From an uncultured virus (IMG/VR IMGVR_UViG_3300011815_000001) (taxonomy: Duplodnaviria > Heunggongvirae > Uroviricota > Caudoviricetes), in IMG/VR virus record IMGVR_UViG_3300011815_000001: a stretch of 64,000 nt of DNA; one strand, given 5' to 3'. Made by a program: the position numbers and the translations under genes. The notes below the pieces were generated by a model. It was not told where the DNA came from. It ran no database searches and saw nothing but the letters and a program-made list of their open reading frames with translations. Positions 8,900 through 60,897 of this stretch are shown here, piece after piece; positions within the stretch are counted from its first letter, which is position 1, and each line of letters opens with the position of its first letter.

Positions 8900-8912
8900 G
8901 GAGGAATTATTT

Positions 8913-19134: not shown

Positions 19135-19207
19135 TTCATTGCGATTCATAACCTAAGCATGTTTTAAAACTGCTTCGCATCATATATACAAAAGGAGAAA
19201 TATACAT

Positions 19208-22200
19208 ATGGCATTCGAATGGTTAAATGAAAACAGCAGAAAATTTTTAGAGGGTGGGTATTTACAAGAAGGAGTTACACCTGAACAACGATTAAAAGAT
19301 ATTTCTAATTACGCAGAGAAAATTTTAGGTATTGAAGGATTCTCTGATAAATTTTATGGCTACTTATCTAAAGGATATTACTCCTTGTCATCTCCAGTTT
19401 GGTCTAACTTTGGTACAAGTAAAGGGCTTAGTATTTCGTGTGTAACTGGTGATACTTGGATTAACACATCCGATGGCGGTAAAATGGCGAAAGATATTGA
19501 ATTAGGAGATTTAGTATTAACTCATAAAAATCGTTTCCGTAAAGTAGTGAATGTTATTCCTACAAAAGATAGAAACGATATTTGGAAACTTAAAGTTGGT
19601 ACTCGTATGACCAATTTATACATTACAGGAGATCATGTGGTATTAACTAACACTGGTTGGAAACGTGTAGATGAATTAGATAGCAATAAAGATTTGATTG
19701 CTGTAAATGGTGAATTAGAATACGAACATAAAGATTTTACATTTGACATGAAAAAATATACTAACTATGAATTTGTGTTAGAGGACGGATTAATTAAAAA
19801 AGCAGTAGAAAATAAAGATGAAGTTAGATCGTTAAGAAACAATAAGGAAGAATCACATGTTACTTCTTATGCTAAAGTGAGTGAATATGTAGAAGTAGAT
19901 GAGGATATGGCTTGGGCTTTAGGTTTATGGTTTGCTGATGGATCATTATCAGTAAATAAAAATGGAGAAGCGAACGGAATTAGACTTACTGGTAATATGA
20001 AAGATAAAGATGGTATCGTTAAAAAATGGAAAGAAATAGTAGGTAGTAAATTTAATGTTAATGTAGGTGAATACATTTCAGAGTTAGAGCGTAACGGGAA
20101 AACAAATTCATGGGTAACCGTAGATGCTAACAGTAAAGTCCTAGGTAATTTATTCGAATCATTCGGAAAAGGTGCTAAAAATAAATTATTATCAGATGAA
20201 TTATTAAATTTACCAAAAGAAAAGTTATTAAAATTACTAGAAGGTATGTTGAGTGGTGACGGTTCAAATAGAAACGATGGAAATATGGTAAAGTTGACAC
20301 TATCTAATCCTAAATTAATTTTACAAGTTTATAATATTGGTCTTAAATTAGGAAAATCAATGTCATTACAAATGCAAGAAAAAGCTAATGCATTGTCAAC
20401 AACTAGTCATGTTTATACTTTATTATTTAGAGATTATGTAAATTCTATTTCTAAAAATAATGTACGCTCAGGAATTCCTTTCTCTGATGGATTAATTTAT
20501 GCTCCTATTCATACGTTAGAACGTACTGATAAAGTTGAAGATGTGTACGACTTCACCGTAGAAGAAGACCACAGCTTCTCATGTGCAGGAGTAGTAGTAC
20601 ATAACTGTTTTGGAAGTAATATTGATGATACTATGTCAAACATTATGTACACTCATGGTGAAGTAGGGATGATGAGTAAGTTTGGAGGAGGAACTTCGGG
20701 TTACTTTGGACATCTTCGCCATCGTGGAGCACCTATTAAGGGGAATGGCAATTCTTCTGGAGCAGTTCATTTTATGAATTTATTTGAAACTTTAATTGAT
20801 GTGGCTAGTCAAGGAAATGTTCGTAGAGGAGCTTTCTCACCATATCTTCCTATTGAACATCCTGATGCTGAGGAATTCTTAAAAATTGGTTCTGAAGGTA
20901 ATCCGATTCAAAAACTAACTCATGGAATTACAGTTACTGATGAGTGGATGAAAGCAATGGTTGATGGTGACATGGAAAAACGTTCACTATGGGCTAAAGT
21001 TATTCAAAGTCGTGTGGAAAAAGGATACCCATACATTTTCTTTACATCTACAGTGAATAACAACACAGTAGACGTATACAAAGATAAAGGTTTAAAAATC
21101 AATCACTCGAACTTGTGTAAATAATTGCACCTTTTATGGGCGACCATAATCGAAAACCCATCTAAACGGGGAACATCTCAAGCAGACAATCCCGTGCTAA
21201 ATTCTAATTATTAATTAGATAAATGCCTAACGACTATGCTGAAAAGCAGTAGAGCATAAGTTTATGATGCTCGAAACGGTGGGGTGGTCACGTACCACAT
21301 GATATAGTCTACTCTATATGGCGACATATAGCTGTCTTAATTGACGGGCGAGAAATTACGAATCTCGTTGAATATATAGGAGTGAAATTATGTTACCTAA
21401 TAACGAATCTGAATCATTCGTATGCTGTTTATCTTCAATGAACTTATTACATTTTGATGAGTGGAAAGACACTGACGCAGTAGAAACAATGGTTTATTTC
21501 TTAGATGCAGTAATTTCTGAATTTGTTAGCGATTTAGAGGCTATGCGAGATTCAAATGATAAAGAAAAACGTGATGCTTTCGTTTACATGGAACGTGCTT
21601 ATAACTTTGCTAAAAATCACAGAGCGTTAGGAATAGGAACGCTCGGTTACCATTCATACTTACAATCTAAGATGATTCCATTTGAAAGTGTAGAAGCTTC
21701 AACTTTAAATATTCGAGTACATAAACTTCTACAAAAGAAAGCTTTAAAAGCATCTAAAGAATTAGCTGAGTTATTCGGAGAGCCTGAAATTTTGAAAGGT
21801 TATGGACGACGTAATAGTACTACCATCGCCATCGCACCAACAACTTCTTCGGCATTTATTTTAGGTCAAGTCTCGCAGTCGATAGAGCCGCAGTGGTCTA
21901 ATACATACGTAAAAGATGTAGCGAAAGCGAAAGTAACTATTCGTAATCCATACTTAAAGAAAGTTTTAGAATCTTATGGTAAGGATGATAGAGATACATG
22001 GAATAGTATTCGTGATAATGATGGTTCTGTTCAACATTTAACATTCCTAACTAACCATGAAAAAGAAGTATTTAAAACGTTTAGTGAAATTGACCAATAT
22101 GTAGTTTTAGAGCAAGCCGCATTACGTCAGCAATTTATTGACCAAAGTCAATCATTGAATATCATGGTTAATCCAAAAATGTCAGCTAAGGAAATCAACG

Positions 22201-22313
22201 ACTTACATATTTTTGCATGGAAGAACAAGATCAAGACACTTTACTATCAACACAGCACAAATGCGGCACAACAATTTAGTAAAGATAAGCTATGTACTGT
22301 TTGTGAAGCATAA
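19208..22313 (+). CDS. nrdA: Ribonucleotide reductase alpha subunit; exons 19208-21118 and 21381-22313; contains an intein; mature protein about 558 aa
   Basis: SSPVWSN, GGGT, RRGA, spliced SNLCSEI, CCLSS, APTTSS, KTLYY and C-terminal CTVC; no ATP cone. Confidence 0.92.
19439..20605 (+). mobile_element. Intein (389 aa) with LAGLIDADG homing endonuclease
   Basis: Starts CVTGDT and ends VYDFTVEEDHSF...VVHN followed by Cys; block B TGDH; LGLWFADG and LEGMLSGDG motifs. Confidence 0.93.
21119..21380 (+). ncRNA. Group I intron in nrdA, 262 nt, ORF-less
   Basis: 5' exon ends in U with P1 GUGU/GCAC; core elements TAACGACTA and GATATAGTCT; terminal G; removal restores NLC-SEI in frame. Confidence 0.92.
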
Positions 22314-25038: not shown

Positions 25039-26547
25039 ATGCAGAAACGTAAGATAGTTATCTATGTGCGTAAATCTAGGCTGAATGCTGATGATACAAT
25101 GGAAGTAGAAAGACAAGTGGAACTATTAATTGACTATGCTAATAACAATAACATGGAAATCAATGTGGATACAGATATATTTAAAGAAGAGGGTAGCTCA
25201 GAAAATTGGAATAGAAAAGAGTTCCAAAGAATGTTAACCGTCTTAGAAAGCGGAGTTTATGATGGAGTGTTAGTTACTGAGCAAGACAGGATCAGTCGTG
25301 ATTCAACGGACATGGGGTTGTTTAAAAGGTTCTGTGTAAACCATTCACTTTTATTATTTACATTAACTAAAACGTATAATTTTTTAAACGACGAAGACAA
25401 CTTCATGTCAGGGATTCAAGGTGAGATGGATTCACATTTTATGCGCATCACTAAGCGTAAACTTATGCGAGGTAGAATTAAGGCATTACAAGATGGGGTG
25501 TTTTTCGGAACTCCGCCTCTAGGATACATTAAACCAAACACACGTCCTAAACGATTGATTATTGAGCCTCATAATGCAAAAGCAGTAAAAATGATATTCG
25601 ATTTATATGTAAATAAAAAAATGACTCAATCAGAAATAGCAGATAAGTTAAACTTATTGGGATTTAAAACTTATTTTAACAAGCCTTTTACAGTTAGAGC
25701 TACATCACTGATATTATCTAATGAAGCGTATATTGGAACGTTAAGATATGAATTGAAGAATATAGAGCCAATTATTGTTGAAGATGCACACCCTAATATT
25801 ATTGACAAAGAATTGTTTGAAAAAGCACAAATCTTAATGGCAGAAAGACGTATCGTTCCTCAAGATTCTAGAAGAGGCTCGTACATGCTATCAAAACTAA
25901 TTAAATGTGCTAAATGTGGTACTACGTTATCCTTTTCTAATTCGTTTAAATCTTCAAGGAGAGATAGAGGTAAGGAATTATATATACTAAATTGCTACGC
26001 CTCTTTAAGTAAAATTAAAAAAATGAACTTAACTGAAAGATGCGATAACTATGGCTCTCTTGCAAGTTATGTTGAAGATTTTGTCCTTAAAGATTTAAGC
26101 TATTATGTTGACGACTTATCCGAGCGGATAGATCAATTGGAAAACTCTGATAAAGATATTTTCAGTGAAGTTCAAGAACAAATTGAACTGATTAATGAGA
26201 GGTTAACAAAGCTGGAAAAGGAAAGAAAAAGGGTTCAAGATGGTTACAGAGAAGGAATATATGAGTCAGACGAAGCGCAAGAATTAATTAAAAAAATAAA
26301 AGAAGATAAATTAAAGCTGGAACATGAGAAGAAAAACCTTGAACACAAGGACTCATCCACTGAAATAATAAAGCTGAGTAACACTAGGGAGAAAGTTATT
26401 GAATTATTATCATCTGACGATTTGGACATGAAAACATTTAATTCAATTCTAAGAGAAATTATTGACAGAGTGGAATACTTCAAGGATGGCAGAGGTAGTA
26501 ATTTAAACAGAAAAGAGCCCTATGTCACAGTAGTTTATAAAAATTAA
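25039..26547 (+). CDS. Large serine recombinase (integrase, SprA-like)
   Basis: YVRKS catalytic Ser, DRISR, PLGY recombinase domain, LIKCAKCG Zn ribbon and coiled coil. Confidence 0.93.
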   Translation: MQKRKIVIYVRKSRLNADDTMEVERQVELLIDYANNNNMEINVDTDIFKEEGSSENWNRKEFQRMLTVLESGVYDGVLVTEQDRISRDSTDMGLFKRFCVNHSLLLFTLTKTYNFLNDEDNFMSGIQGEMDSHFMRITKRKLMRGRIKALQDGVFFGTPPLGYIKPNTRPKRLIIEPHNAKAVKMIFDLYVNKKMTQSEIADKLNLLGFKTYFNKPFTVRATSLILSNEAYIGTLRYELKNIEPIIVEDAHPNIIDKELFEKAQILMAERRIVPQDSRRGSYMLSKLIKCAKCGTTLSFSNSFKSSRRDRGKELYILNCYASLSKIKKMNLTERCDNYGSLASYVEDFVLKDLSYYVDDLSERIDQLENSDKDIFSEVQEQIELINERLTKLEKERKRVQDGYREGIYESDEAQELIKKIKEDKLKLEHEKKNLEHKDSSTEIIKLSNTREKVIELLSSDDLDMKTFNSILREIIDRVEYFKDGRGSNLNRKEPYVTVVYKN

Positions 26548-26616: not shown

Positions 26617-27720
26617 ATGAATACAATTTTTAAGCCGCATGACGCTTGGTAACCTTACCATGACATCGAGAAATACGGCAGGCTTACCCTGTCTAATATA
26701 GAGTTTACAACAACCAACTTATGTAATATGAGATGTTCGCATTGTGCAGTGGGCTATACATTATTAACGAAAGAATTACCGGCAATTCCGGCAGATCAGA
26801 TCATTCGTAGGTTAGATGAGGTTGAAACTTTACGTACAATGAGTTTTACAGGCGGGGAACCATTATTAACTAAAAAGGGAATAAAGGATAACCTGTTACC
26901 ACTTTTGAAATATGCGAAAAGCAGAGGGATCAAAACGCAAATTAATTCGAACTTAACCTTGCCAATGTCTCATTACGAATTAGTGGCTCCTTATTTGGAT
27001 GTCATGCACATTTCGCACAATTGGTGTGATGAAAAAGAATTTGTTGAAACAGGATTTGCTATGATGGAGAAAACGCCATCAATTGAATATAGAGGTAATT
27101 TATATCGTAATATATTTGACAACGCCCGAGAATTATCAAAAGGTGGGGTTTTTGTGTCTGCTGAGACGATGTTGAATAAAAATACCTTGCCTCACCTAGA
27201 GAAAATTCATCGTGAAGTAGTGGAAGAAATGTTATGTCAAAGGCAAGAAATTCACCCTATGTACACATCAGACTACGCTGAAAATTTAGAGGTAATTGAT
27301 TTAGATGAATATCGAAATGCTGTGAATCATCTGCTAGACATTCGAAATAAAGATACATGGATGTTGTTCGGAACTTTACCTTTCTATTCATGTAGTTTTG
27401 ATGCAAGGGACTTAGCATTACTGGATAGAATTAATAATACATCAAACGTTACAGTTAGAAATGATGTCGATGGTCGCTCTCGTATGAATCTGAATATTTT
27501 TTCAGGGGAAGTGTCTGTTTCTGATTTTACTGATGATGGAAAAGCCTTGGGGAACATTAAGGATAGTTCCTTGACCGAAATTTATCAGAAGTGGTTGGGT
27601 ACTAACATTTCAAATACAATTAATTGTCACTGCCCTAAAGTTAAATGTTTAGGCTCTAATGTCATCGTAAAGAACATGTATTATCAAGATAAAGTATTTA
27701 AAAGTGGTAGTGTAAAATAA
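26617..27720 (+). pseudogene. yfkA: YfkAB radical SAM / CxCxxxxC protein with in-frame TAA at codon 12 (26650-26652)
   Basis: RBS AAGGAG; MNTIFKPHDAW*PYHDIEKYG...EFTTTNLCNMRCSHCAVGY, GGEP, LHISHNW-like, NDVDGRSR and NCHCPKVKCLG. Confidence 0.8.
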
Positions 27721-27731
27721 AAAATAATATA

Positions 27732-27778
27732 GGATTAGTTTTAAATTGTTTAAGTTAATTTAAAACTAATCCTTTTTT
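27732..27778 (+). terminator. Rho-independent terminator
   Basis: GGATTAGTTTTAAATT...AATTTAAAACTAATCC followed by a T-run. Confidence 0.75.
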
Positions 27779-27814
27779 CTATTTAAAACAATTTTAAAGA
27801 TTTTTAAATTATTT

Positions 27815-27845
27815 GGTATCTTTTCAGTGTACTAGCGCATACATT
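27815..27845 (+). promoter_or_regulatory. Sporulation sigmaE-like promoter upstream of the parM-like gene
   Basis: -10 CATACATT (consensus cATAcanT) with GGTATCT upstream; a paralogous element lies at about 29182-29211. Confidence 0.5.
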
Positions 27846-27873
27846 GTGACAAATAAGAAAAAACGGAGGGAAT

Positions 27874-28713
27874 TTGTTGAGTAATCCGATTACTGGAAAC
27901 ATTGTTGTAGATGACGGGGGTTCAAATACAGTGTGCGTCACTAAGCATAGAATTGAAATATTTCCAAGCGTAAAAGGTATCTATGGAAATCGTACCTTAA
28001 CTCAAATAAAATCTAAATATGACTTCATAGTTGAATATGAAGGAGAAATGTATGTTTTAGGTACTCTTGCGGCTGTAGACTGTGAATACCCCATCAGAAT
28101 GTTCAGTAAGTCCAAACAGCACGAGTTCTTTGACTTATCCGTATTGGTATCTATTCATCAGTACGGGTTCTACGATAATCGATTAATCATTAGTGTGCCC
28201 GTAAAAATGCATACAGAAGAGGAGAAGCAAGGAAGAATAAAACGACTTCTCGGAAATCACACCCTCAAAGTAAACGGCATAACTAAATCATTCTTAATTT
28301 CTGATGTTAAAGTGTCTGCTGAAAGTACAACTGCATATTTCATAAATCAACCCTCAGATGAATCCCATTACATTGACATCGGATCAAGAACGATAAATTT
28401 TTCCAAAATTCTAAGTACGAACAATGAATTTAGAATGATTGACACTGCCTCTGGTACGTTTTTTGATAAGGGGTTGGAGAGCTTAGGCGATGCCTTTAAC
28501 GCTAAAGCTTTAGGTGATTATATTTGTGGTCAATTATTGGCTAAATGGAGTCCTAATTCAAAAGTATATTTATTAGGTGGTGGAGCTTTGAATGAGGAAC
28601 TGGTGAACAGAATTAAATCATACTTCCCAAATTCAGAAGTAATGAAAAATCCTTTGACAGCAAATGCGGAAGGTATGTTTATATTGGCAGGTATGGCATA
28701 TGGCTTGGATTAA
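27874..28713 (+). CDS. ParM/StbA-family actin-like ATPase
   Basis: Phosphate 1 VVDDGGSNT, connect AES, phosphate 2 IDIGSRT, adenosine LGGGA and ANAEG. Confidence 0.85.
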   Translation: MLSNPITGNIVVDDGGSNTVCVTKHRIEIFPSVKGIYGNRTLTQIKSKYDFIVEYEGEMYVLGTLAAVDCEYPIRMFSKSKQHEFFDLSVLVSIHQYGFYDNRLIISVPVKMHTEEEKQGRIKRLLGNHTLKVNGITKSFLISDVKVSAESTTAYFINQPSDESHYIDIGSRTINFSKILSTNNEFRMIDTASGTFFDKGLESLGDAFNAKALGDYICGQLLAKWSPNSKVYLLGGGALNEELVNRIKSYFPNSEVMKNPLTANAEGMFILAGMAYGLD

Positions 28714-29062
28714 TTCAGAGGAAGAAGTAGATAAAATTATTGAAGATTTGAAGTCCAAGAACAAAAAGTACATCACCAAGGGAGTATCATTCGATAAAAA
28801 TAATGAAGCTCATATGAGGTTATTAAAGTATTGCTTAATGTACTCAGACTCATTTAGTGCTATTGTCAAGGAATTAATTGCATCAAGAGTAAATAGTCTA
28901 ACAGATTATGAGAAAGTGGACAGAGCACCGACTATTAGCCATAGAGTAACTCCACAAGCCACCATTGAAAGCGAATCTGCTGTTTTAGATTCAATTGAAG
29001 AAAGCAAAGATGACCACAAGGATACAAAGGAAAATAAGATTAACATAAGTAATTTTCTTTAA
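28700..29062 (+). CDS. ParR-like RHH adaptor protein
   Basis: Overlaps the parM end; KGVSF...LLKY...FSAIVKELI pattern with a low-complexity C-terminal tail. Confidence 0.6.
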   Translation: MAWINSEEEVDKIIEDLKSKNKKYITKGVSFDKNNEAHMRLLKYCLMYSDSFSAIVKELIASRVNSLTDYEKVDRAPTISHRVTPQATIESESAVLDSIEESKDDHKDTKENKINISNFL

Positions 29063-29074
29063 TTAAATTTTAAA

Positions 29075-29116
29075 GCCATTAAGTTCACCTCTAAATGAAG
29101 TGTCTTAATGGCTCTT
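29075..29116 (+). terminator. Stem-loop after parMR
   Basis: AGCCATTAAG...CTTAATGGCT. Confidence 0.6.
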
Positions 29117-29181
29117 TATCGTTATCTTGATTTCACGTAAGTTACTGTTTAAAACTTTTTAAAACAATTTAAAATAATTTG

Positions 29182-29211
29182 TAATCCTTTTCGACATTTG
29201 AGCATAAGATA
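29182..29211 (+). promoter_or_regulatory. Second sigmaE-like promoter
   Basis: GTAATCC-15 bp-CATAAGAT followed by GACAAATAA, as in the parM upstream element. Confidence 0.45.
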
Positions 29212-29253
29212 CGACAAATAACAAAAAGTTTAAAAGAATTTAAAACTAAACCA

Positions 29254-29370
29254 CTACTTACTCTTCTTAGTATCCTTCGATTTGGTCACTAAGCCATATT
29301 TAGTAGTAGTCTTCTTCATCCCACTAGCAACTTTACGTAGCCCTTCATTATTAACCTTCTTCGTAGACAT
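29254..29370 (-). CDS. 38 aa lysine-rich peptide, antisense orientation
   Basis: RBS AAGGGAG; MSTKKVNNEGLRKVASGMKKTTTKYGLVTKSKDTKKSK. Confidence 0.45.
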   Translation of the reverse strand: MSTKKVNNEGLRKVASGMKKTTTKYGLVTKSKDTKKSK

Positions 29371-29518
29371 TACATAAAACTCCCTTGCTGAATTAGTACA
29401 ATTACTATCTCCAAATAAACAAGGAAGTATACGCATATTAATGAATGCTGTCGAATAGTGTGATAAAACACGGGACACTGTACGAAAAGACACATTAATT
29501 CATAAGGAGTGTAGATTA

Positions 29519-30091
29519 ATGAAAAAACGTGAAGTAAAACCTTTTGTGGACACTGTAATTAAAGACACAATCAATAAGATTTCCTTTGTAACAGGATGTA
29601 GCGTCAAAAGTATTTGTGAGGATTTTTGCTCTCATGCTTTTACATCTGGATTAGGGAATGAGCTGTCAGCTTATTTTAAAAGGGATTTGGATATTGACGG
29701 TAAGTTATTTGAGGCTAATGACATCGGATTTAAATTTGATCCTTTTACGAAAGATATAGAAAGGATTTCAATGACGCTTAACAATACAAATTATGACTAC
29801 GCATACCGCTTGGCTTATGCAATGGAGTGTTCTGTTGCAAAAGTGGTTGCTTATGCGTTAGGTAAGAGTATCAATGACTTCGACTTTTTAAATAAATATA
29901 TAGAAGAAATTTTAAGGAAAAATGTTGACGAGAAAAGAAGGAACTTATTACTGGATGTTGTGAAGGATGTAAACAATTCAAATTATGAAGAGGAATATTC
30001 TATCGCTTCAATAGTACTGTACATTGCAGACGAGTATAGAAGATTTGATGACGGAATTAACAGTGTCTTAAAAGACGCTTACTGTATATAA
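29519..30091 (+). CDS. Putative tandem ribbon-helix-helix DNA-binding protein
   Basis: Two strand-helix-helix-like units (REVKPFV..., ERISMTL...); RBS AAGGAG. Confidence 0.55.
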   Translation: MKKREVKPFVDTVIKDTINKISFVTGCSVKSICEDFCSHAFTSGLGNELSAYFKRDLDIDGKLFEANDIGFKFDPFTKDIERISMTLNNTNYDYAYRLAYAMECSVAKVVAYALGKSINDFDFLNKYIEEILRKNVDEKRRNLLLDVVKDVNNSNYEEEYSIASIVLYIADEYRRFDDGINSVLKDAYCI

Positions 30092-30122
30092 ACATCATTA
30101 AATAAAAAGGGAGAATGATTAA

Positions 30123-30296
30123 ATGGACATCATGAATATGCACGATAATAAAAGTGTAATTGTTTGGACATTACCAGAACCGATTGAGTCTGAAAAGACA
30201 GTGGAATTAATTACAAAGAAAGAACAGACAATTTTCAATGAGTTCATGTTAACTTGCGCTACTGCAATTGTACCTGTTATCACTTTGATTTTTTGA
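30123..30296 (+). CDS. 57 aa protein with C-terminal hydrophobic anchor
   Basis: Not in the ORF track. RBS AAGGGAG; MDIMNMHDNKSVIVW...TAIVPVITLIF*. Confidence 0.5.
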   Translation: MDIMNMHDNKSVIVWTLPEPIESEKTVELITKKEQTIFNEFMLTCATAIVPVITLIF

Positions 30297-30315
30297 GGAA
30301 ATCTGAAGCCAAATT

Positions 30316-30473
30316 TCATTATTCCCTCATTGTTCCCAACAGCTCATTATTCCCATTATTCCCTTGGGAACAAAGCAAAAACGCTGTAAAAATGGGGATT
30401 TCACTATATGTATTTTTCGGGAAATATGGGAATAATGAGTTTAAATATTAGACGTAAATGACATGGGAATGAG
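30316..30473. repeat. Polar array of (T)CATTRTTCCC repeats
   Basis: Direct copies at 30316, 30327, 30344 and 30354; perfect inverted copy at 30428-30438; degenerate inverted copies at 30366, 30419 and 30465. Confidence 0.8.
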
Positions 30474-30580
30474 GTCAGAATAGACCATCATTTTTAACCG
30501 AAAATCATGCGATTTTTAAAATCGCCTCATGTAAAATGTGTAGGCTAAAACTGGAGATAAAATGAAAGGGTGGGTAAATC

Positions 30581-31138
30581 ATGAACTATCCAATTACTTC
30601 TAAATTTATGGACTTCGAAAGTTTCCGAAAAGTTCCACATAAAGGAATCGATTTTGCAATGGAAAAATCAACTCCATTAAGAGCGATTGTTGACGGAAAA
30701 ATTCAGGTTATTGATTATGGTAATTTAAAAGCAGGAAAAACTGTTGTAATAAAGGGGTCAGATGGAATGACTTATATCTATGGTCATCTTTCCGAATTTA
30801 AAGTAAGAAACGGAGATGTTGTTAAGCAAGGAGATTTGATTGGACTGTCAGGAAATTCTGGGAATGTGTATGGAAGTGGTGGAGGATATCATCTTGATTT
30901 CACAGTAAAAAACGAGCAAGGTCAGTTTATCGACCCTGCTCCGTACAGCAAATTTATACAAAATATGAACGACCCAAAATACATCAAGTCTTTAACAGAT
31001 ACGGCACGAAACGCAACTGAGGTTAATCTAGATAACGTGATGCAACAATTTAGTGATGGATTATCCAATATTAATTTCAACTTTTTTAATGAAGGAACAG
31101 CGAACATGATTTCAATGTTGCTTAGATTTTTTACTTAG
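30581..31138 (+). CDS. M23 family peptidase
   Basis: HKGIDF, YGHLS and GNSG motifs; the HxH motif appears as HLD. Confidence 0.85.
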   Translation: MNYPITSKFMDFESFRKVPHKGIDFAMEKSTPLRAIVDGKIQVIDYGNLKAGKTVVIKGSDGMTYIYGHLSEFKVRNGDVVKQGDLIGLSGNSGNVYGSGGGYHLDFTVKNEQGQFIDPAPYSKFIQNMNDPKYIKSLTDTARNATEVNLDNVMQQFSDGLSNINFNFFNEGTANMISMLLRFFT

Positions 31139-31305
31139 TCAATTACTCGGAATTCATATAGAGCTTCCAAAATTAAATGTAATTCTTTCTTGGAAATATT
31201 TACATCTTTCTTACGTCGAATCGTATCAAGTACCAACTCTTCAACGTTTTCTAACTGTCGCTCGTATCTTGGGATTGGGCAATCATTTAATACGCCTAGA
31301 AACAC
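31135..31305 (-). CDS. Small hypothetical protein (56 aa)
   Basis: Strong RBS AAGGAGG before GTG 31305. Confidence 0.55.
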   Translation of the reverse strand: MFLGVLNDCPIPRYERQLENVEELVLDTIRRKKDVNISKKELHLILEALYEFRVID

Positions 31306-31374
31306 TGCAATCAACCTCCTTGAGTTATTTGTAGTGTAACCATATTGAACGTAATTATACAAAGGAGATGAAAA

Positions 31375-31584
31375 ATGTTAGGTGCTTTTACTGTATTGGC
31401 TGGTGTTGGAGTTGTCTGTGCAAGTGGTGTAGCTATTTCTTCGGCTTTTAGATTTTTCCTTACTTACGAGTATGACTTGACTGCAAAAATTAAGGAGTCA
31501 AAAAAGAATGAAACTAAAAGAACGATTGGAGGAGAAGAACATGCAAAGCACATTGAAAATTTATCAAAAAGAATTAAGCAATAA
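31375..31584 (+). CDS. Small membrane protein
   Basis: RBS AAAGGAG; N-terminal TM segment. Confidence 0.65.
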   Translation: MLGAFTVLAGVGVVCASGVAISSAFRFFLTYEYDLTAKIKESKKNETKRTIGGEEHAKHIENLSKRIKQ

Positions 31585-32173
31585 CTCTTCTATTCCATTT
31601 GAGTTAAAAGAAACCTATACATCAACTCGAATAAAAACAAATGTAACTAAACAAAAACTGAATATTGATGACAAAGTTAATGGGGTGCTTTTTCTAGCGG
31701 AAACTCTGAAAGAGGAGGTATTACAAGGATCACTCATACAAAAGAAGAAAAATGCAAAACAATTAAAAAAACTACTAATACAGTTTGTAACAATTTCATT
31801 GATGACTGGTGTGGGAATGAGCTTCGGGATACTTACAGCAGAACCACTTACAGCTTCGGCAAACAGCTTTATGACAACTACAACAGCGAACACACCGACT
31901 ACAGTAGAAATAACTCCAGATTCAATAATGGATTGGGCATTGAAAATTGCACTATTGATAGTAGCAGTGGGAGTGGGACTGTCGATGTCGATGTTCGCAA
32001 TTGTGGGGATATATCTGATGTTAACTCGAAAACGGAGAGAGAGTATAGAATGGAATGCCGACATAATAAAAGGCGTGGTTCAAGTTTTGGTAAGTATACC
32101 TCTAATTTACAGTTTGTTCCAATTATCTCAACTAGTATTCAAAAATTTACCTTTCTTAGAGGGGCTAATGTAA
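31541..32173 (+). CDS. Membrane protein with VirB2/TrbC pilin-like C-terminal half
   Basis: Internal signal-like segment ending ASA, then two TM helices separated by a basic loop (RKRRESIEW..IIKG). Confidence 0.5.
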   Translation: MQSTLKIYQKELSNNSSIPFELKETYTSTRIKTNVTKQKLNIDDKVNGVLFLAETLKEEVLQGSLIQKKKNAKQLKKLLIQFVTISLMTGVGMSFGILTAEPLTASANSFMTTTTANTPTTVEITPDSIMDWALKIALLIVAVGVGLSMSMFAIVGIYLMLTRKRRESIEWNADIIKGVVQVLVSIPLIYSLFQLSQLVFKNLPFLEGLM

Positions 32174-33243
32174 AACTTGCGACGATTCCATTTGCCGCAA
32201 TGACAACTACTTTCCTTTTAGGAACACCTGATGTAGATGCCGCAGGCTTTAGTTTAGATAATTTAAATCCTTTGAAACCTATAGTAGATGATTGGCAAGC
32301 GGTTAAAGGGTGGTTTAAAAATCTTCCACATAATATTGCAGAATGGTCAATTGAATTAATGACAAAAATTTATGAGTTAGCTACTTCATTAATACTTAAA
32401 ACTCCACTATGGTTATTTGATAATGATTGGTTTAAAAATACAACATATAAGTTTAGCTTAATATCTATTGGTGTAGTTTCAGTGCTCACTTCAGTTGAGG
32501 GTATCAAAAGAATGCTTCCTAAAAAGGGAGGCAAGAAGCCTATGGAATTAAAGGATATTGCGAAACGTTGGTTTATAGTTTCAGGACTAATGACAGCTAC
32601 TCCTTTCTTATTTCAGAAAGCATTCCAAGGATTAAACTGGGTATCTGAGACTCTCATATCAATGGGCGCAGACACGATGCGAGACAACGCATTACCTGAA
32701 AATATTAAACCCATAGACGTTGCGATTTTAATCCTTTTTGATGCTCTCTTAATAACTACAATAATACCTATACTATGGAAGAATGGACGAAAATTTTTTG
32801 ACCTCCTCGTATTGGGCGCGATTTCTCCATTTGCACTCACTGCCTTCATATTTGACTCATATAGAGGATTGTTTAAGCAATGGGTGAGCAACTTGATTCA
32901 TCTTTCAATGACCCAAGTATATCACGCCTTATTCTTATTAGTTCTGGGTTGGTTTATTTTCGGAGTACCTACTCCATCTGATCCTATTGGTATGATGGTA
33001 AAAATGTTAGTGACAATTGGGGGCTTCAGTAGATTACAAAATCCTCCAAGACTAATTTCTAAACACTTGGATAACGGAGCAGGGTTTGATGAAATAACTG
33101 ATGGAATCAAAAAGACGAAAGACAACACTAAGCGAAACATTGAGTTTACAAAAGGTTTACTAACTAAAAATCCAAAGAAAGTGTTTGATGCGTTGTCTAA
33201 GGATAGATTTTCTTCATCAAAAATACTTCCTGTTAAGAAATAG
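32170..33243 (+). CDS. Polytopic membrane protein, VirB6/TrbL-like
   Basis: Signal peptide, 5-6 TM segments and the motif LLVLGAISPFALTAFIF...FKQW. Start is unclear: GTA at 32170 after the RBS, first ATG at 32200. Confidence 0.6.
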   Translation, partial: VKLATIPFAAMTTTFLLGTPDVDAAGFSLDNLNPLKPIVDDWQAVKGWFKNLPHNIAEWSIELMTKIYELATSLILKTPLWLFDNDWFKNTTYKFSLISIGVVSVLTSVEGIKRMLPKKGGKKPMELKDIAKRWFIVSGLMTATPFLFQKAFQGLNWVSETLISMGADTMRDNALPENIKPIDVAILILFDALLITTIIPILWKNGRKFFDLLVLGAISPFALTAFIFDSYRGLFKQWVSNLIHLSMTQVYHALFLLVLGWFIFGVPTPSDPIGMMVKMLVTIGGFSRLQNPPRLISKHLDNGAGFDEITDGIKKTKDNTKRNIEFTKGLLTKNPKKVFDALSKDRFSSSKILPVKK

Positions 33244-33268
33244 GAAGAAGCGAATGAGGTGTGTTTAA

Positions 33269-35608
33269 GTGAGAAATTTCAAATTTCATAACCTAACAAA
33301 CTTATACACTAAAACGAATCCAAGTAAAATAGCCAATGACTTCAAAAGGGTACTTGAGCAATCTAGAAATGGTATCTGTGGAATTGAAATTAAATCGAAT
33401 AGGGGAGGAACTGATTTTACATTGGTTTCTCCTTCTTTTTTAAAACAGAATGGAATCATCAGAGGCTCAAATAAAAATCATTTATCAGAGGATAACGTAT
33501 TTTTAGAAGGATATTTATCCGAACCATTCTTCTTACCGCTTTGTACAGTTTTAGATGGAGAATTTATTGAGCGAATACAGTCTCTTTCGTTTATTCTGAA
33601 AGACAATGAAACTATATTTATTCAATGGCTATTCAAAAGAACATCCAATTACCAAGAGAAGGCTATTCAAATGTATTCTAGCTATATCCTGCTAGGGAAT
33701 GATTATCCTTTAACACTTAATATTGGTCGGAAGTTTCAGGAAAAGGTGATAAATCTAACGAATAAATTGGGAAGAGTTGCAGAAGTGAGAGATTATATAG
33801 AGGAAGCGGAAAAGAAGATTGTTAGTGAGGGGTATTGTTTTAAACTTATTGTAGCGATGAATTGCTCATTAGGCAGACAAGATTATATTAGAAATAGGTT
33901 GGAAGGTATATTCAATCAGTACACTTATTATAATGGAATTAAATTTGCAGAAGTAAAAGGTAAAAATTTAATTCAGCAAATAGATGATTGTATTATGACT
34001 CATGATACTAAATATCAAATTTTATCGAAAAGGGAAATATTGTCGCTGATTGGAGGGAATGATTTTGATGAAGTAGAAGAAGCTGAAATGGAGGTTGTAG
34101 ATGAGGGAGGTAGGATATCAGGTAAATCTGGTGGAAGTGGAGTAATTGTAAAAGATGCAATTGAGTTATTACCAAATTATCCGATTCAGGAAGTAGTAGA
34201 AAGAGAGGGAATATTACAGGAGATTGCAGAAGCATTGAAACGGGTGGGGGTTACATCTCAAGCGAGAGTTTATAATGGAGAAGTTACTACTGGTATACGT
34301 TTAACTTCAATTACCTGTGATATACCGAAAAATAAGAATCTAACTGACTTAACAAAGAAGCAGAAAGATATACAGGCTTCGTTGGGAGTTCAATCTCTTA
34401 GTATCGAGCAGGGCGAATTTCCTGACACTGTTAAATTTTCTATACCTAATGATAAACCATCAATTGTTGGATTACGCACGATGTTGGAACAAGATTCATT
34501 CAAGGAATTTTGTAAAGAAAATTCATTACCATTTGTAGTCGGATTAACAGAATTGAATGACCCCATTTATCTTTCGCTTGCAAAGTTGCCGCATTTGCTC
34601 GTAACTGGGACTACTGGTAGTGGGAAATCGGTATTTTTGAACAACTTAGCTACGACCCTCATGCTAATGAATTCTCCAGATGAACTATTGATGGTAATGA
34701 TTGATCCTAAAATGGTTGAATTTCAACACTTTGTAAATTTTGTGCATGTGAAGGAAGTTATCACAGACATGGATAAAGCAGAGCTCACTTTGTTATGGCT
34801 AGTAAAGGAAATGGATGATAGGTATGCTATGTTCAGTAAAGTTGGAGTGAAATCAATAACTGCATACAATGAAGCTGTTAACAGGAATGGGCTAGATAGC
34901 CAATATGAAACAATTCCATCCATTGTCTGTATCATAGATGAGCTGGGTGACTTGATGGATACTCACCCTGAAGTGGAAAATCATATCATCAGACTGGGAC
35001 AAAAAAGTAGGATGGCGGGTGTGAGTTTGATATTAGCTTCGCAACGGAGCTCATCCGACATTATTAGTTCGAGAATTAAAAGCAATGTTTTAAACGCAAT
35101 AAGTTTTAATATGGGAAGCTCCAATAACTATAGGACAATATTTGGGCATGGAATTAATGGTCTGAATCTACTTGGGAAAGGTGATGGAATCCTGAAAATT
35201 ACAGGATATCATAAGGATATGCAACGGTTCCAGAGCCCTATAATCAGTCCGATTGAGAAAGAGGAAGTTGAGGTGTATGAAAAACTAGCACATTATTTAA
35301 GGAAGAAATATAGTAAGAATAAAAGTGAAGACGAAGTAGTAGCAAAGGAAACTAAAGATGAGTTTGAGGATGAAAAATTAATTAAGCTAAAACAGGTGAT
35401 TGCAAATTCAGGTACAACTAAAACATCTGAATTAAGAAAACTGCTCAGTATAAAAAATACAACTTTAATTGATTTAATGAATGAACTGGTGGATCAAAAT
35501 TGGTTAAAGAAAGAATCAAACAGCAGAGGATATGAATTAATTGCAGATGAAGAGGAATTAAATAAATACAAATTACCCTTCCCACAGGCAGAATCGCGAG
35601 AAGGGTAA
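33269..35608 (+). CDS. FtsK/SpoIIIE-family DNA translocase lacking TM segments
   Basis: PHLLVTGTTGSGKS, IDPKMVEF, IIDELGDLM, SQR, LLGKGDG and a C-terminal winged-helix gamma-like domain. Confidence 0.9.
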   Translation: MRNFKFHNLTNLYTKTNPSKIANDFKRVLEQSRNGICGIEIKSNRGGTDFTLVSPSFLKQNGIIRGSNKNHLSEDNVFLEGYLSEPFFLPLCTVLDGEFIERIQSLSFILKDNETIFIQWLFKRTSNYQEKAIQMYSSYILLGNDYPLTLNIGRKFQEKVINLTNKLGRVAEVRDYIEEAEKKIVSEGYCFKLIVAMNCSLGRQDYIRNRLEGIFNQYTYYNGIKFAEVKGKNLIQQIDDCIMTHDTKYQILSKREILSLIGGNDFDEVEEAEMEVVDEGGRISGKSGGSGVIVKDAIELLPNYPIQEVVEREGILQEIAEALKRVGVTSQARVYNGEVTTGIRLTSITCDIPKNKNLTDLTKKQKDIQASLGVQSLSIEQGEFPDTVKFSIPNDKPSIVGLRTMLEQDSFKEFCKENSLPFVVGLTELNDPIYLSLAKLPHLLVTGTTGSGKSVFLNNLATTLMLMNSPDELLMVMIDPKMVEFQHFVNFVHVKEVITDMDKAELTLLWLVKEMDDRYAMFSKVGVKSITAYNEAVNRNGLDSQYETIPSIVCIIDELGDLMDTHPEVENHIIRLGQKSRMAGVSLILASQRSSSDIISSRIKSNVLNAISFNMGSSNNYRTIFGHGINGLNLLGKGDGILKITGYHKDMQRFQSPIISPIEKEEVEVYEKLAHYLRKKYSKNKSEDEVVAKETKDEFEDEKLIKLKQVIANSGTTKTSELRKLLSIKNTTLIDLMNELVDQNWLKKESNSRGYELIADEEELNKYKLPFPQAESREG

Positions 35609-51871: not shown

Positions 51872-52657
51872 CTATCTAGTTTCTGCGGTATAAATTAGTC
51901 GGTATCTAAATTCGATATTAAAATCACCTTTAAAAGTGAAAGTTGTATGTACATGAGGATTCCAATCTAACCAAACATCATTATGATTATCGAATAGGTA
52001 ACGGTTAGTTGATTCTTGAAAATTACTTTCAATTTCTTCATATAAGCAATTCACTTTAACTTTCTCATTGTTCCATAGCCCAGTGATTTTAAATTCCTGT
52101 CCATTTTCTTCATTCTTAATTGAAACATCACCATTTCCAATCTTAGTGATTTCAAGATAAGGGCGAATTGTTTTACTTCCATAGTTAATTAAATCTAATG
52201 TAGATGTACCTCTAACTTGTAACTGTTCAGTGTAATTTGAAGAACGTCCATAAGGGGACATAGTTTTCATTGTCATAGTTGCATATCCATCTTTAAGTCC
52301 ATTGTGAAGTAAATCAGATGAACCCTCTATAATGACATCGAAAATACGTTCAGGATCATTGTTTACCCAAAATTCGCAATAGCTATCTTGGTCTAACCAT
52401 TCTGTAATACTTGCGAGATTGTTTAATTCACGCCAACCGTCTATATAAATAGAAAAAGGGAACGAGATTTGTTCTCGTTCCACTCCTTTAAAATAAATTC
52501 GATTGCCAATTTTTGTTTCGTTTATTTTTCTATTGGGAAGGAAAATGTCTTTGTACAGTCCACTTCCACTATTAATCATAGTTACTCCCATACTTTCCGA
52601 GTCAATACCATTAAAGGTAAATGAGGTGTTCTCCAACATTTTATAGACCTCCTCCAA
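51872..52657 (-). CDS. Distal tail protein (Dit)
   Basis: FTFNGIDS..MGV, SPY and LINYG motifs; lies after the tape measure gene. Confidence 0.8.
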   Translation of the reverse strand: MEEVYKMLENTSFTFNGIDSESMGVTMINSGSGLYKDIFLPNRKINETKIGNRIYFKGVEREQISFPFSIYIDGWRELNNLASITEWLDQDSYCEFWVNNDPERIFDVIIEGSSDLLHNGLKDGYATMTMKTMSPYGRSSNYTEQLQVRGTSTLDLINYGSKTIRPYLEITKIGNGDVSIKNEENGQEFKITGLWNNEKVKVNCLYEEIESNFQESTNRYLFDNHNDVWLDWNPHVHTTFTFKGDFNIEFRYRLIYTAETR

Positions 52658-60839: not shown

Positions 60840-60897
60840 AATTTACCTCCTATAAATAAAATAAAAGAGTTAATTATGTCAATTAACTCTCAATCTG

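What the first reader, a model, noticed from the sequence alone, without database searches (positions are those of the whole stretch)
27790..35608. Phage-encoded ParM + pilin-like/VirB6-like + M23 + soluble FtsK module: candidate sporulation-linked DNA segregation/transfer system
Seen: a co-oriented cluster next to the integrase encoding an actin-like ATPase, a ParR-like adaptor, a tandem RHH protein, a polar repeat array, an M23 peptidase, three membrane proteins (one pilin-like, one VirB6/TrbL-like) and an FtsK/SpoIIIE ATPase with a winged-helix tail but no TM anchor. No relaxase or VirB4 is recognisable in the module. Two sigmaE-like promoters precede it. Established: ParMRC pushes DNA to cell poles, SpoIIIE pumps dsDNA across the sporulation septum, Streptomyces TraB is an FtsK that transfers dsDNA without a relaxase, and SPbeta-type elements excise during sporulation. 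Inference: a minimal dsDNA translocation machine that moves the excised phage circle across a septum (mother cell/forespore) or into neighbouring cells, as a route alongside virions.
Basis: partly seen in the sequence, partly recalled or inferred. Interest (0 to 1): 0.88.

Follow-up and report, generated by a model that had tools for sequence, protein, structure and literature searches.

The report
Phage DNA-positioning and FtsK pump cassette
A large temperate phage of spore-forming bacilli carries a conserved gene block, already noted in print for related phages, that joins an actin-like DNA-positioning pair to membrane proteins and a soluble FtsK DNA motor; it probably moves phage DNA at or across a septum, but nobody has tested what it does.

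Summary
At 27874-35608 (+) lie a ParM-like actin, a small adaptor candidate, an unassigned 190-aa protein, an 11-bp repeat array, an M23 peptidase, three membrane proteins and a TM-less FtsK with intact motor motifs. No relaxase or VirB4 was found.

This is not an oddity of one prophage. The core (about 180-210-aa membrane protein, VirB6/TrbL-like protein, FtsK) recurs in 39-40 of 41 related viral loci and in 162 phage records, 160 named Bacillus, mostly virulent Herelleviridae. A cytoskeletal gene sits upstream in 41 of 42 loci. It is actin-like in 37 and tubulin-like (TubZ) in 4, so the filament system belongs to the cassette. Related repeat arrays lie upstream of the core in 22 of 41 loci, against 4 of 35 control regions.

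A related 'DNA translocation operon' was described in 2012 for phage 0305phi8-36, where its deletion caused no laboratory growth defect.

The anatomy fits a relaxase-less dsDNA pump resembling Streptomyces TraB/Spd. The cassette's presence in virulent phages argues against a role tied to an excised prophage circle. The sigmaE promoter claim is not above chance. 'Pilin-like' and 'tandem RHH' remain unproven.

Verdict: new member of a known but functionally untested kind.

The parts
25039..26547 (+). Large serine recombinase (context: the integrase next to the cassette)
   Evidence: Pfam Resolvase 6e-17, Recombinase 2e-18, Zn_ribbon_recom; PHROG integrase 1.9e-84
26618..27720 (+). yfkB-like radical-SAM gene with an in-frame TAA at 26651-26653 (context: probable attP region)
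   Evidence: Pfam YfkB 2.6e-67. Translating upstream shows MNTIFKPHDAW, a stop, then the rest of the gene.
27838..27845 (+). CATACATT, a sigmaE-type -10-like octamer before the ParM-like gene
   Evidence: 9 copies in the window against 12.5 expected, so not above chance. A terminator-like hairpin at 27731-27773 precedes it.
27874..28713 (+). ParM/Alp-like actin-fold NTPase (279 aa, TTG start after GGAGGG)
   Evidence: ALP_N 6.3e-9; phrog_691 'partition protein' 1.4e-33; start context
28700..29062 (+). Small adaptor candidate (ORF open from 28664), with an acidic C-terminal tail
   Evidence: phrog_32184 1.3e-16, aligned from residue 13. A homologue lies beside the ParM-like gene in L083. The RHH reading is inference only.
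29254..29370 (-). Conserved small basic peptide gene (38 aa from an internal ATG of the 79-aa ORF)
   Evidence: A similar peptide and a TCGACA-17-TATACT/TATAAA promoter occur in L083
29519..30091 (+).
   Evidence: No family hit. 38% homologue in L083 only. Internal DNA repeats.
30123..30296 (+). 57-aa ORF with a C-terminal hydrophobic segment
   Evidence: No homologue found in the 41 loci.
30316..30444 (.). Repeat (iteron) array: TCATTATTCCC 4 times direct, about 55 nt, then GGGAATAATGA-type inverted copies, around a conserved core with a candidate sigmaA-type promoter
   Evidence: Related arrays occur in 22 of 41 loci upstream, against 4 of 35 control regions.
30581..31138 (+). M23 (LytM-type) peptidoglycan endopeptidase, with no signal peptide detected by hydropathy
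   Evidence: PF01551 2.7e-23; phrog_7767 8.7e-54. HxxxD is intact. HLD replaces HLH here and in L083, while 19 of the 21 locus homologues keep HLH.
31135..31362 (-). Small conserved minus-strand ORF
   Evidence: phrog_5065 3.6e-14. tblastn match in 30 of 41 loci. Annotated on that strand in TsarBomba.
31375..31584 (+). DUF7394 single-pass membrane protein (69 aa)
   Evidence: PF24126 5.3e-13; phrog_3796; TM at 1-29; 23 of 41 loci
31541..32173 (+).
   Evidence: phrog_3528 7.5e-42; hydropathy; 39 of 41 loci. T4SS_pilin evidence is only weak.
32200..33243 (+). Polytopic VirB6/TrbL-like membrane protein (347 aa from the ATG; frame open from 31933)
   Evidence: phrog_3750 1.9e-137; TrbL_4 1.4e-4; VirB6 PRK13852 4e-3; atlas TrbL clusters 0.90-0.93; 0305phi8-36 ORF203 E 6.6e-19
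33269..35608 (+). Soluble FtsK/SpoIIIE-type ATPase: family-specific N-domain (about 1-340), motor (about 340-660), winged-helix-like tail (about 700-775)
   Evidence: PF01580 1.1e-42; phrog_3551 8.4e-266; PDB FtsK 2IUU 2.4e-72; invariant Walker A/B; N-domain in only 41 clusters; tail

Best explanation
The block is this phage's copy of a conserved cassette of large phages of spore-forming Bacillales. It has two linked halves.

Half 1 is a cytoskeletal DNA-positioning pair. Here it is a ParM/Alp-like actin plus a small adaptor. In some relatives it is TubZ plus a TubR-like protein.

Half 2 is an operon behind a repeat array. It encodes an M23 cell-wall peptidase, small membrane proteins, a VirB6/TrbL-like polytopic protein and a soluble FtsK-type hexameric dsDNA motor with a DNA-binding tail.

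Proposed working, all inferred:
1. The filament system brings replicated phage DNA to a membrane site.
2. The FtsK docks there through its family-specific N-domain onto the phage membrane proteins.
3. It recognises phage DNA, perhaps through the repeat array, as TraB recognises clt.
4. It pumps unprocessed double-stranded phage DNA across a septal membrane, while the peptidase opens the wall.
5. The likeliest destination is the forespore (a 'virospore') or a sister cell in a chain.

Shown here: the genes, their intact motifs, their linkage, the swap of filament type, the repeat arrays, the lack of a relaxase and VirB4, and the restriction to records named Bacillus. Not shown: any binding, any localisation, any DNA movement.
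For: - Conserved linkage. Of 41 IMG/VR loci found through the VirB6-like protein, 40 have the FtsK and 39 the 210-aa protein next to it.
- Filament gene. It lies 2.4-4 kb upstream in 41 of 42 loci, window included. It is actin-like in 37 and Tubulin/FtsZ-family in 4. The only miss, L119, has no upstream sequence.
- Motor. Closest to true FtsK (2IUU 2.4e-72), with invariant Walker A, Walker B and QR motifs in 40 relatives. An FtsK_alpha domain hit appears in a chromosomal relative.
- Tail. MarR/winged-helix hits in 10 of 15 relatives. The window's tail is 40% identical to such a tail.
- No relaxase. 0305phi8-36 ORF200 finds nothing in the window or in the 41 loci.
- Repeat arrays. At least 4 copies of a 7-mer within 150 bp in 22 of 41 upstream regions, against 4 of 35 control regions. 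Motifs are related ((A/T)TT(A/C/T)CCC), including in a TubZ-type locus with 11-bp spacing.
- Host range. The VirB6-like protein matches 162 phage records, 160 named Bacillus. The nearest cellular homologues are named Ureibacillus and Solibacillus.
- SigF/G-like sigma genes lie within 10 kb upstream in 25 of 42 loci.
- Print. The related 0305phi8-36 operon is dispensable for laboratory growth (PMC3357382, abstract and passages). SPO1 forms virospores and its ParM is discussed as a possible factor (PMC12991052, passages). TraB with Spd membrane proteins moves dsDNA across septal cross-walls using clt repeats (PMC4447253, passages).
Against: - No experiment exists and none of my tools measures function.
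- The membrane-channel reading rests on weak homology. TrbL_4 is below Pfam's cut-off and hits 2 of 35 relatives. The PDB profile hit to TrwI has E = 1.4. The fold model is mediocre (pLDDT 64) and matched nothing specific.
- T4SS_pilin hit 1 of 37 relatives at E = 0.037.
- All studied type IV systems need a VirB4 ATPase (recalled knowledge), and none is present here.
- M23 was found in only 21 of 41 loci.
- Known spore entrapment is described as using host functions (PMC12991052), so a phage pump may be unnecessary.
- The window lacks the sigma genes. Its sigmaE-like motif is at chance level.
- Many of the 41 loci are close relatives, so the counts overstate independent support.
Confidence: 0.45

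Rival explanations
1. The cassette handles DNA inside the cell only. It would be a plasmid-like maintenance and positioning system for replicating or carrier-state phage genomes. The filament pair partitions or positions the DNA, as AlpAC does in prophage CGP3. The soluble FtsK, tethered at the membrane, clears or resolves phage DNA at closing septa. Nothing crosses an envelope.
For: - Partition-type NTPases accompany the core in nearly all loci. A ParA-type ATPase lies beside the TrbL-like/FtsK pair in one chromosomal element (L126).
- AlpC/AlpA/alpS is a documented phage actin system for viral DNA transport and replication (PMC5539076, abstract and passages).
- The pLS32 region that encodes AlfA confers plasmid stability during sporulation and growth (bioRxiv 10.1101/190744, one introduction passage).
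- The FtsK has no TM anchor.
Against: - A peptidoglycan peptidase in 21 of 41 loci and a conserved VirB6/TrbL-like polytopic protein are not needed for purely cytoplasmic DNA handling.
- Most carriers are virulent phages with no known plasmid state.
Confidence: 0.25
2. The cassette acts on something other than the phage's own DNA. It could be a secretion, host-takeover or superinfection-exclusion device, in which the FtsK-type ATPase and membrane proteins export a protein (as type VII EssC/EccC ATPases do) or expel or block incoming foreign DNA.
For: - The motor also matches EssC/EccC-type ATPases, more weakly (TIGR03924 1.9e-30; EccC5 3.1e-34).
- PHROGs files the family under 'moron, auxiliary metabolic gene and host takeover'.
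- The related 0305phi8-36 operon is dispensable in the laboratory.
Against: - The best matches are to true FtsK over the alpha-beta motor.
- Only a single ATPase domain is present.
- There is a winged-helix tail and a linked DNA-partition pair with repeat arrays.
- No PADLOC defence model matched beyond generic FtsK/HerA domains.
Confidence: 0.1
3. The cassette is a decaying remnant of a conventional conjugative element (ICE or plasmid) captured by the phage, with its relaxase and VirB4 lost or encoded elsewhere.
For: - There are VirB6/TrbL-like signals.
- The 0305phi8-36 variant has a Replic_Relax-like ORF200.
- Only 64 kb of a 161.6-kb contig could be inspected.
Against: - The same gene order is kept in 162 phage records and 41 viral loci, with intact catalytic motifs.
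- No relaxase homologue lies within 10 kb in any of the 41 loci.
- The N-domain family is tiny, almost always has the same architecture, and is not found fused to other ATPases (41 clusters).
- The VirB6-like protein was found in only 1 of 401 sampled genomes of the class.
Confidence: 0.05

Closest known systems
'DNA translocation operon' of Bacillus phage 0305phi8-36 (orf200-207), with a partial version in SPO1 (Pathria et al. 2012, PMC3357382; outline, abstract and passages read)
   Same: The gene order is the same: actin-like gene, small gene, about 170-aa membrane protein, VirB6-like protein, large TM-less ATPase. ORF203 matches the window's polytopic protein (28.5% identity, E 6.6e-19). 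The ORF201 N-domain matches the FtsK N-domain in 5 of the 41 loci. ORF207 matches the upstream actin gene in 25 of the 41 loci.
   Different: The 0305phi8-36 ATPase has no Pfam FtsK hit and did not match the window's FtsK directly. That operon ends with a relaxase-like ORF200 (Replic_Relax 6.2e-5), which is absent here and in all 41 loci. It has no M23 gene in the stretch annotated.
FtsK/SpoIIIE and ParM genes reported in Bastille-like Herelleviridae (Grass, PMC3853049; Bc431v3, PMC3601020; Bastille-group survey, PMC4528723; passages read)
   Same: Same protein families, at 43-45% identity over 98% of the FtsK and 45-60% for the membrane protein. Synteny is the same in SIOphi and TsarBomba.
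   Different: Those phages are virulent myoviruses and often carry SigF/G-like sigma genes beside the cassette. This one is a temperate siphovirus-type phage with the cassette beside its serine recombinase, a different ParM subtype and no sigma gene nearby. In the passages I read, those papers list the genes singly, without the membrane proteins or the repeat array.
Streptomyces TraB / Spd / clt conjugation and intramycelial spreading system (PMC4447253, passages read)
   Same: It works alike on paper: an FtsK-type motor with a C-terminal DNA-recognition domain, direct repeats as the cis site, no relaxase, and partner membrane and peptidoglycan-interacting proteins at septal walls.
   Different: No homology to Spd proteins was tested or seen. 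NCBIfam plasmid_TraB scores only 1.7e-11 (43 bits against a cut-off of 800). The phage motor has no TM segment. The repeats here are 10-11 bp and are not shown to bind the motor.
Type II (ParMRC, AlfAB/parN, AlpAC/alpS) and type III (TubZRC) DNA partition systems
   Same: An actin-fold NTPase (ALP_N) followed by a small gene, with repeats nearby. Relatives carry TubZ plus a small upstream HTH gene instead. AlpAC is a phage precedent (PMC5539076).
   Different: The repeat array lies about 1.6 kb downstream of the ParM-like gene, in front of the pump operon, not upstream of parM as I recall for R1. Similar motifs occur in ParM-type and TubZ-type loci, which suggests the binder may not be the filament adaptor. 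Adaptor identity is untested.
Gram-positive type IV secretion (conjugation) systems
   Same: A VirB6/TrbL-like polytopic protein, a cell-wall hydrolase, small membrane proteins and a DNA-pumping ATPase in one operon.
   Different: There is no VirB4, no VirD4-type coupling protein, no relaxase and no VirB8-like protein. The hydrolase is M23.

Membership tests
FtsK/SpoIIIE dsDNA translocases | RecA-like beta motor domain with Walker A, Walker B and arginine-finger region | tested here: met
   PF01580 1.1e-42. 2IUU 2.4e-72 over profile positions 342-626. G447, G452, K453, S454, E558 and Q592 are invariant in 40 relatives.
FtsK/SpoIIIE dsDNA translocases | Alpha domain preceding the motor | tested here: inconclusive
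   The PDB alignment starts at FtsK construct residue 126-128. Pfam FtsK_alpha hit only the chromosomal relative L126 (5.5e-6), not the window's protein.
FtsK/SpoIIIE dsDNA translocases | C-terminal gamma winged-helix that reads DNA motifs | tested here: inconclusive
   MarR in 10 of 15 relatives and HTH_27 in 3, with no hit for the window's own tail. No FtsK_gamma hit. PDB search with the tail gave nothing significant.
FtsK/SpoIIIE dsDNA translocases | N-terminal transmembrane anchor | tested here: not met
   No hydrophobic window at or above 1.6 in 779 aa. The N-domain is a family-specific soluble region found in 41 clusters.
ParMRC type II partition | Actin-fold NTPase | tested here: met
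   ALP_N 6.3e-9, above the cut-off; phrog_691 1.4e-33
ParMRC type II partition | RHH adaptor (ParR) encoded directly downstream | tested here: inconclusive
   A small downstream gene is present (phrog_32184, unknown function). It has no family hit. The RHH reading is inference.
ParMRC type II partition | Centromere repeats bound by the adaptor | not testable with these tools
   A repeat array exists, but it lies downstream of the pair. Binding is unknown.
Conjugative type IV secretion system | VirB4-family ATPase | tested here: not met
   None in the window ORFs scanned. The only weak VirB4 signal is the FtsK P-loop itself (TIGR00929, 0.002). The rest of the 161.6-kb contig was not available.
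Conjugative type IV secretion system | Relaxase | tested here: not met
   No relaxase family was found in the window ORFs scanned. 0305phi8-36 ORF200 finds nothing in the window or in the 41 loci.
Conjugative type IV secretion system | VirB6/TrbL polytopic membrane protein | tested here: inconclusive
   TrbL_4 1.4e-4, below the cut-off, in 2 of 35 relatives, plus 4.6e-5 in L114 and 7.9e-6 in L126. PRK13852 4e-3. TrwI E = 1.4. Atlas top clusters are all TrbL families at 0.90-0.93. Fold searches were uninformative.
Conjugative type IV secretion system | VirB2/TrbC-type pilin | tested here: inconclusive
   The topology fits: a signal-anchor ending ASA, then two helices. T4SS_pilin hit 1 of 37 relatives at 0.037 and 0305phi8-36 ORF204 at 9.7e-4. 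Atlas leads scored 0.82-0.83.
Phage 'DNA translocation operon' (0305phi8-36 type) | VirB6-like ORF203 homologue next to a large TM-less ATPase, downstream of an actin-like gene | tested here: met
   ORF203 against the window E 6.6e-19, and matched in 40 of 41 loci. Gene order.
Phage 'DNA translocation operon' (0305phi8-36 type) | MobC/Replic_Relax-like relaxase ORF200 | tested here: not met
   No match in the window (E < 1) or in the 41 loci (E <= 1e-3)
Streptomyces TraB/clt system | TraB-family translocase recognising clt repeats | tested here: not met
   NCBIfam plasmid_TraB scores 43 bits against a cut-off of 800. The likeness is functional only. Repeat binding is not testable.

The most novel reading that the evidence does not exclude
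Large phages of spore-forming bacilli spread their genomes without capsids. A relaxase-less, VirB4-less descendant of a conjugation channel (VirB6-like protein and small membrane proteins, with or without an M23 peptidase) is driven by a soluble FtsK motor. It is fed by an actin or tubulin filament and aimed by clt-like repeats. It pumps whole double-stranded phage DNA through a finished septum, into the forespore or into the next cell of a chain. This would be a second, particle-free route of virus transmission.
Probability: 0.25. Interest if true: 0.9.

Novelty: new member of a known kind. Interest (0 to 1): 0.58.

Why it matters
How virulent phages get their genomes into spores ('virospores'), and whether phage DNA can pass between cells without particles, are old open questions.

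This cassette is a concrete, conserved candidate. It also sits in phages that grow on laboratory Bacillus subtilis, so the question can be tested directly.

- The filament partner can be actin-like or tubulin-like.
- A related repeat array always sits between the filament pair and the pump operon.
- The FtsK-type version lacks the relaxase of the 0305phi8-36 version.

If the cassette only positions DNA inside the cell, it is still a widespread phage function that is dispensable in the laboratory and has no assigned role.

Tried and rejected
- Near-identical DNA in the phage collection: none for the module or for loci L114 and L115.
- Genome-contig scan with the whole FtsK returned only cellular FtsK motor domains and taught nothing about the cassette.
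- Viral-contig scan with the single membrane protein found nothing. The alignment-based scan worked.
- No whole genome is held for the window, so the other roughly 98 kb of the contig could not be checked for VirB4, a relaxase or sigma genes.
- Fold of the VirB6-like protein: AlphaFold2 model pLDDT 64. Foldseek against PDB gave no match at E <= 0.001. VIA-align wide gave only generic helical bundles, best Z 8.2. This says nothing about whether the fold is VirB6-like.
- A second structure job, for the FtsK, was not accepted. The N-domain fold and the tail fold therefore remain unpredicted.
- PDB sequence searches with the FtsK N-domain (no hit) and tail (best hit ParG at E = 0.052, not significant).
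- PADLOC gave only generic FtsK/HerA-domain hits (SspH, mad8, HerA).
- Sequencing runs: none was listed, and no RNA holder was listed.
- KOPS-like dispersal of the repeat motif was rejected. Outside the array the 10-mer occurs at about chance level, 9 matches in all against 4.7 expected, 5 of them inside the array.
- Covariation of the FtsK tail with repeat motif class: only an anecdotal pattern. The GTTTCCC loci L085, L086 and L114 share WLEK and a shorter wing. This is too few independent cases to count.
- Literature searches for an experimental study of the cassette found none. The jumbo-phage survey PMC7824862 has no relevant passage.

Full report
WHAT IS THERE

The window is part of a 161.6-kb phage contig.
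- Replication and nucleotide-metabolism genes lie on the + strand up to about 24.7 kb.
- Tail and lysis genes lie on the - strand from 36 kb.
- Between them are a large serine recombinase (25039-26547) and a yfkB-like gene.
- The closest named structural relative is Lysinibacillus phage LC76P1, at 38% identity over a tail protein. The SPbeta label is therefore not established.

The reported block runs from 27874 to 35608 on the + strand. In order it holds:
- a ParM/Alp-like actin (ALP_N 6.3e-9; PHROG 'partition protein' 1.4e-33);
- a 120-132-aa protein of a PHROG of unknown function;
- a 457-bp spacer with a small conserved minus-strand peptide gene;
- a 190-aa protein with no family hit;
- a 57-aa ORF;
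- a repeat array (30316-30444);
- an M23 peptidase (2.7e-23);
- a small minus-strand ORF (phrog_5065);
- DUF7394 (one TM);
- a 210-aa membrane protein (phrog_3528);
- a polytopic 347/357-aa protein (phrog_3750);
- a 779-aa FtsK/SpoIIIE ATPase (PF01580 1.1e-42; phrog_3551 8.4e-266).

The FtsK has no hydrophobic segment.

THE CASSETTE IS CONSERVED, AND MOSTLY IN VIRULENT PHAGES

The FtsK matches 293 phage records, 160 of them over at least 80% of its length. The top hits are at 43-45% identity in Bastillevirinae (Herelleviridae) Bacillus phages. SIOphi and TsarBomba show the same gene order.

The polytopic protein matches 162 phage records: 160 named Bacillus, one 'Phage f2b1' with a Staphylococcus host label, and one Xanthomonas. 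No record named for Listeria, Staphylococcus or Enterococcus phages appeared in the organism tally of that search. Its closest cellular homologues are named Ureibacillus (74%) and Solibacillus (72%). Only 1 of 401 sampled genomes of one class had a match.

In 41 IMG/VR loci found through an alignment of the polytopic protein, local tblastn found:
- the FtsK in 40. The miss, L121, ends at a contig end;
- the 210-aa protein in 39;
- the minus-strand ORF in 30;
- DUF7394 in 23;
- M23 in 21.

Many of these loci are close relatives, so the counts are not independent events.

THE FILAMENT GENE BELONGS TO THE CASSETTE

With four actin queries and one TubZ query, 41 of 42 loci (window included) have a cytoskeletal gene 2.4-4 kb upstream. 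All but one are in the same orientation. Actin-like genes account for 37 (31 Herelleviridae type, 6 window type). Tubulin/FtsZ-family genes account for 4 (L114, L115, L118, L123). The only miss, L119, has no upstream sequence.

In three of the TubZ loci a small gene precedes TubZ, and one has a weak SarA/Rot HTH hit. This matches the TubR-TubZ order as I recall it.

One chromosomal relative (L126) has a ParA-type ATPase beside the TrbL-like/FtsK pair. That is a single case.

Replacement of one filament family by an unrelated one, in front of the same pump genes, argues that the two halves work together.

THE REPEAT ARRAY

The window has TCATTATTCCC four times direct. About 55 nt further on are inverted GGGAATAATGA-type copies.

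The 73%-identity relative L083 has the same motif and a roughly 90% conserved core between the arms. By my reading that core holds a candidate sigmaA-type promoter, TTGGGA-17-TAAAA(A/T). It scores 8 of 12 in the window, below the scan tool's threshold. A listed 9-of-12 site follows at 30494-30522.

Across loci, at least 4 copies of a 7-mer within 150 bp occur in 22 of 41 upstream 4-kb regions. The figure is 4 of 35 in control regions beyond the FtsK.

The motifs are related: ATTATTCCC, GTTTCCC, AATTCCC, AATTACCC. They occur in both actin-type and TubZ-type loci. L114 has CGTTTCCCA in 5-7 copies at 11-bp spacing.

Because unrelated adaptors accompany similar motifs, the binder may be a conserved cassette protein. 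The FtsK tail is one candidate. This is inference.

The 10-mer is not dispersed along the window. It therefore resembles a local clt/parC-type site more than KOPS.

THE PROTEINS

FtsK:
- The motor is closest to true FtsK (2IUU 2.4e-72). It is ahead of EccC/EssC and a 'DNA translocase coupling protein'.
- Walker A, Walker B and the QR motif are invariant in 40 relatives.
- The N-terminal roughly 340 aa match only 41 clusters among 1.84 billion representatives. Nearly all are 630-844 aa, with the domain at the N-terminus. No PDB sequence matches it.
- The tail gives MarR/winged-helix hits in 10 of 15 relatives but not in the window's own protein. The window's tail is 40% identical to the L114 tail, which carries such a hit.

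Polytopic protein. Several weak lines point to VirB6/TrbL:
- Pfam TrbL_4 at 1.4e-4, in 2 of 35 relatives;
- TrbL_4 at 4.6e-5 in L114 and 7.9e-6 in L126;
- NCBIfam VirB6 at 4e-3;
- top PDB profile hit TrwI at E = 1.4;
- language-model neighbours that are all TrbL families, 0.90-0.93;
- homology to 0305phi8-36 ORF203 (E 6.6e-19), which its authors called VirB6-like.

Structure gave nothing. I rate VirB6/TrbL kinship likely but unproven.

210-aa protein. It has the topology of a T4SS pilin precursor: a long polar leader, a signal-anchor ending ASA, then two hydrophobic helices with a basic loop. Family support is poor: 1 of 37 relatives at 0.037, ORF204 at 9.7e-4, and atlas scores of 0.82-0.83.

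M23 peptidase. HxxxD is intact. The window and L083 have HLD where 19 of the 21 locus homologues have HLH.

WHAT IS ABSENT

No relaxase or VirB4 family was found among the window ORFs scanned. The relaxase-like ORF200 of 0305phi8-36 (Replic_Relax 6.2e-5) has no homologue in the window or in any of the 41 loci.

The FtsK-type cassette is thus relaxase-less, as expected for a dsDNA pump. The 0305phi8-36 type pairs a different ATPase with a relaxase-like gene.

PRINT RECORD

- Pathria et al. 2012 (PMC3357382; outline, abstract and passages read) described orf200-207 of 0305phi8-36 as a 'DNA translocation operon'. They showed that its deletion leaves plaque size and titre unchanged. They suggested that phage genomes might pass from cell to cell without particles.
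- Genome papers list FtsK/SpoIIIE and ParM in Bastille-like phages with unknown roles (PMC3853049, PMC3601020, PMC4528723; passages).
- A 2026 study shows SPO1 virospores and names its ParM as a possible factor (PMC12991052, passages).
- I found no experimental study of the cassette.
- Earlier notes of this scan describe the same cassette in two other windows and led me to the 2012 paper. They also note ParM-FtsK operons in phages of filamentous bacteria. I did not check that claim. If true, it would favour a septum or chain role over a spore-specific one.

SPORULATION LINK

For:
- Carriers are almost all named Bacillus.
- SigF/G-like sigma genes lie within 10 kb upstream in 25 of 42 loci.
- Two of the window's four TGTCGAA boxes lie in the 457-bp spacer.
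- One box is conserved in L083.

Against:
- That box overlaps a minus-strand -35 hexamer, which may be why it is conserved.
- The window has no sigma gene nearby.
- The sigmaE-like octamer is at chance level.
- The role proposed for the excised circle does not fit virulent carriers.

VERDICT

The mechanism is plausible and partly supported by anatomy and comparison, but unproven. The kind is already in print, though functionally untested. This instance is a temperate-phage member with a distinct ParM subtype.

Noticed in passing
window 26618-27720: The yfkB-like radical-SAM gene beside the serine recombinase is full length, with its own RBS. It has an in-frame TAA after codon 11 (26651-26653), inside a near-palindrome (TTGGTAACC) flanked by CATGAC repeats. 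This looks like an attP core inside a phage-borne gene copy, such that integration into the host yfkB would leave an intact hybrid gene.
   Followed up: partly
window 29062-29519; L083 3700-3940: The spacer holds a conserved small basic peptide gene on the minus strand (38 aa, 29254-29370) with a TCGACA-17-TATACT promoter. It also holds two of the window's four Spo0A-box heptamers (29190-29196 and 29449-29455). One box with its flanks is conserved in L083.
   Followed up: partly
window 30581-31138 and 52641-57815: The free-standing M23 peptidase belongs to the same PHROG (7767) as the M23 domain inside the tape-measure protein (residues 845-995), so the two may be paralogues. The window copy and L083 have HLD instead of the usual HLH metal motif.
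   Followed up: partly
window 17869-22313 and 58185-62280: The ribonucleotide reductase large subunit is split (19208-21124 and 21390-22313). The tape-measure gene is in pieces (58185-58940 and 52641-57815), with an HNH/homing-endonuclease gene nearby (60898-62280). This suggests introns or inteins, as in other large Bacillus phages.
   Followed up: no
L126 (G142:C159:7000-26900): One chromosomal element in a Bacilli genome has the order HTH_3, a 94-aa ORF, a TrbL_4-like protein (7.9e-6), then an FtsK with an FtsK_alpha hit. Beside it are a divergent ParA-type ATPase, a tyrosine integrase and a resolvase. This would be a third partition type next to the same pump pair.
   Followed up: partly
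L112, L114-L118, L121, L123, about 8570-9260: In 8 distant loci a roughly 140-aa protein with a C-terminal HTH_3 domain sits on the + strand between M23 and the 200-aa membrane protein. The window and the Herelleviridae have the small minus-strand ORF (phrog_5065) in that slot.
   Followed up: no
window 32168-32200: The VirB6-like gene has no clear start. A good SD (AGAGGGG) precedes the ATG-TAA that ends the upstream gene. In the VirB6-like frame the conserved signal-peptide-like residues begin at a GTA codon (32170), 30 nt before the first ATG (32200). This suggests coupled or non-canonical initiation.
   Followed up: no
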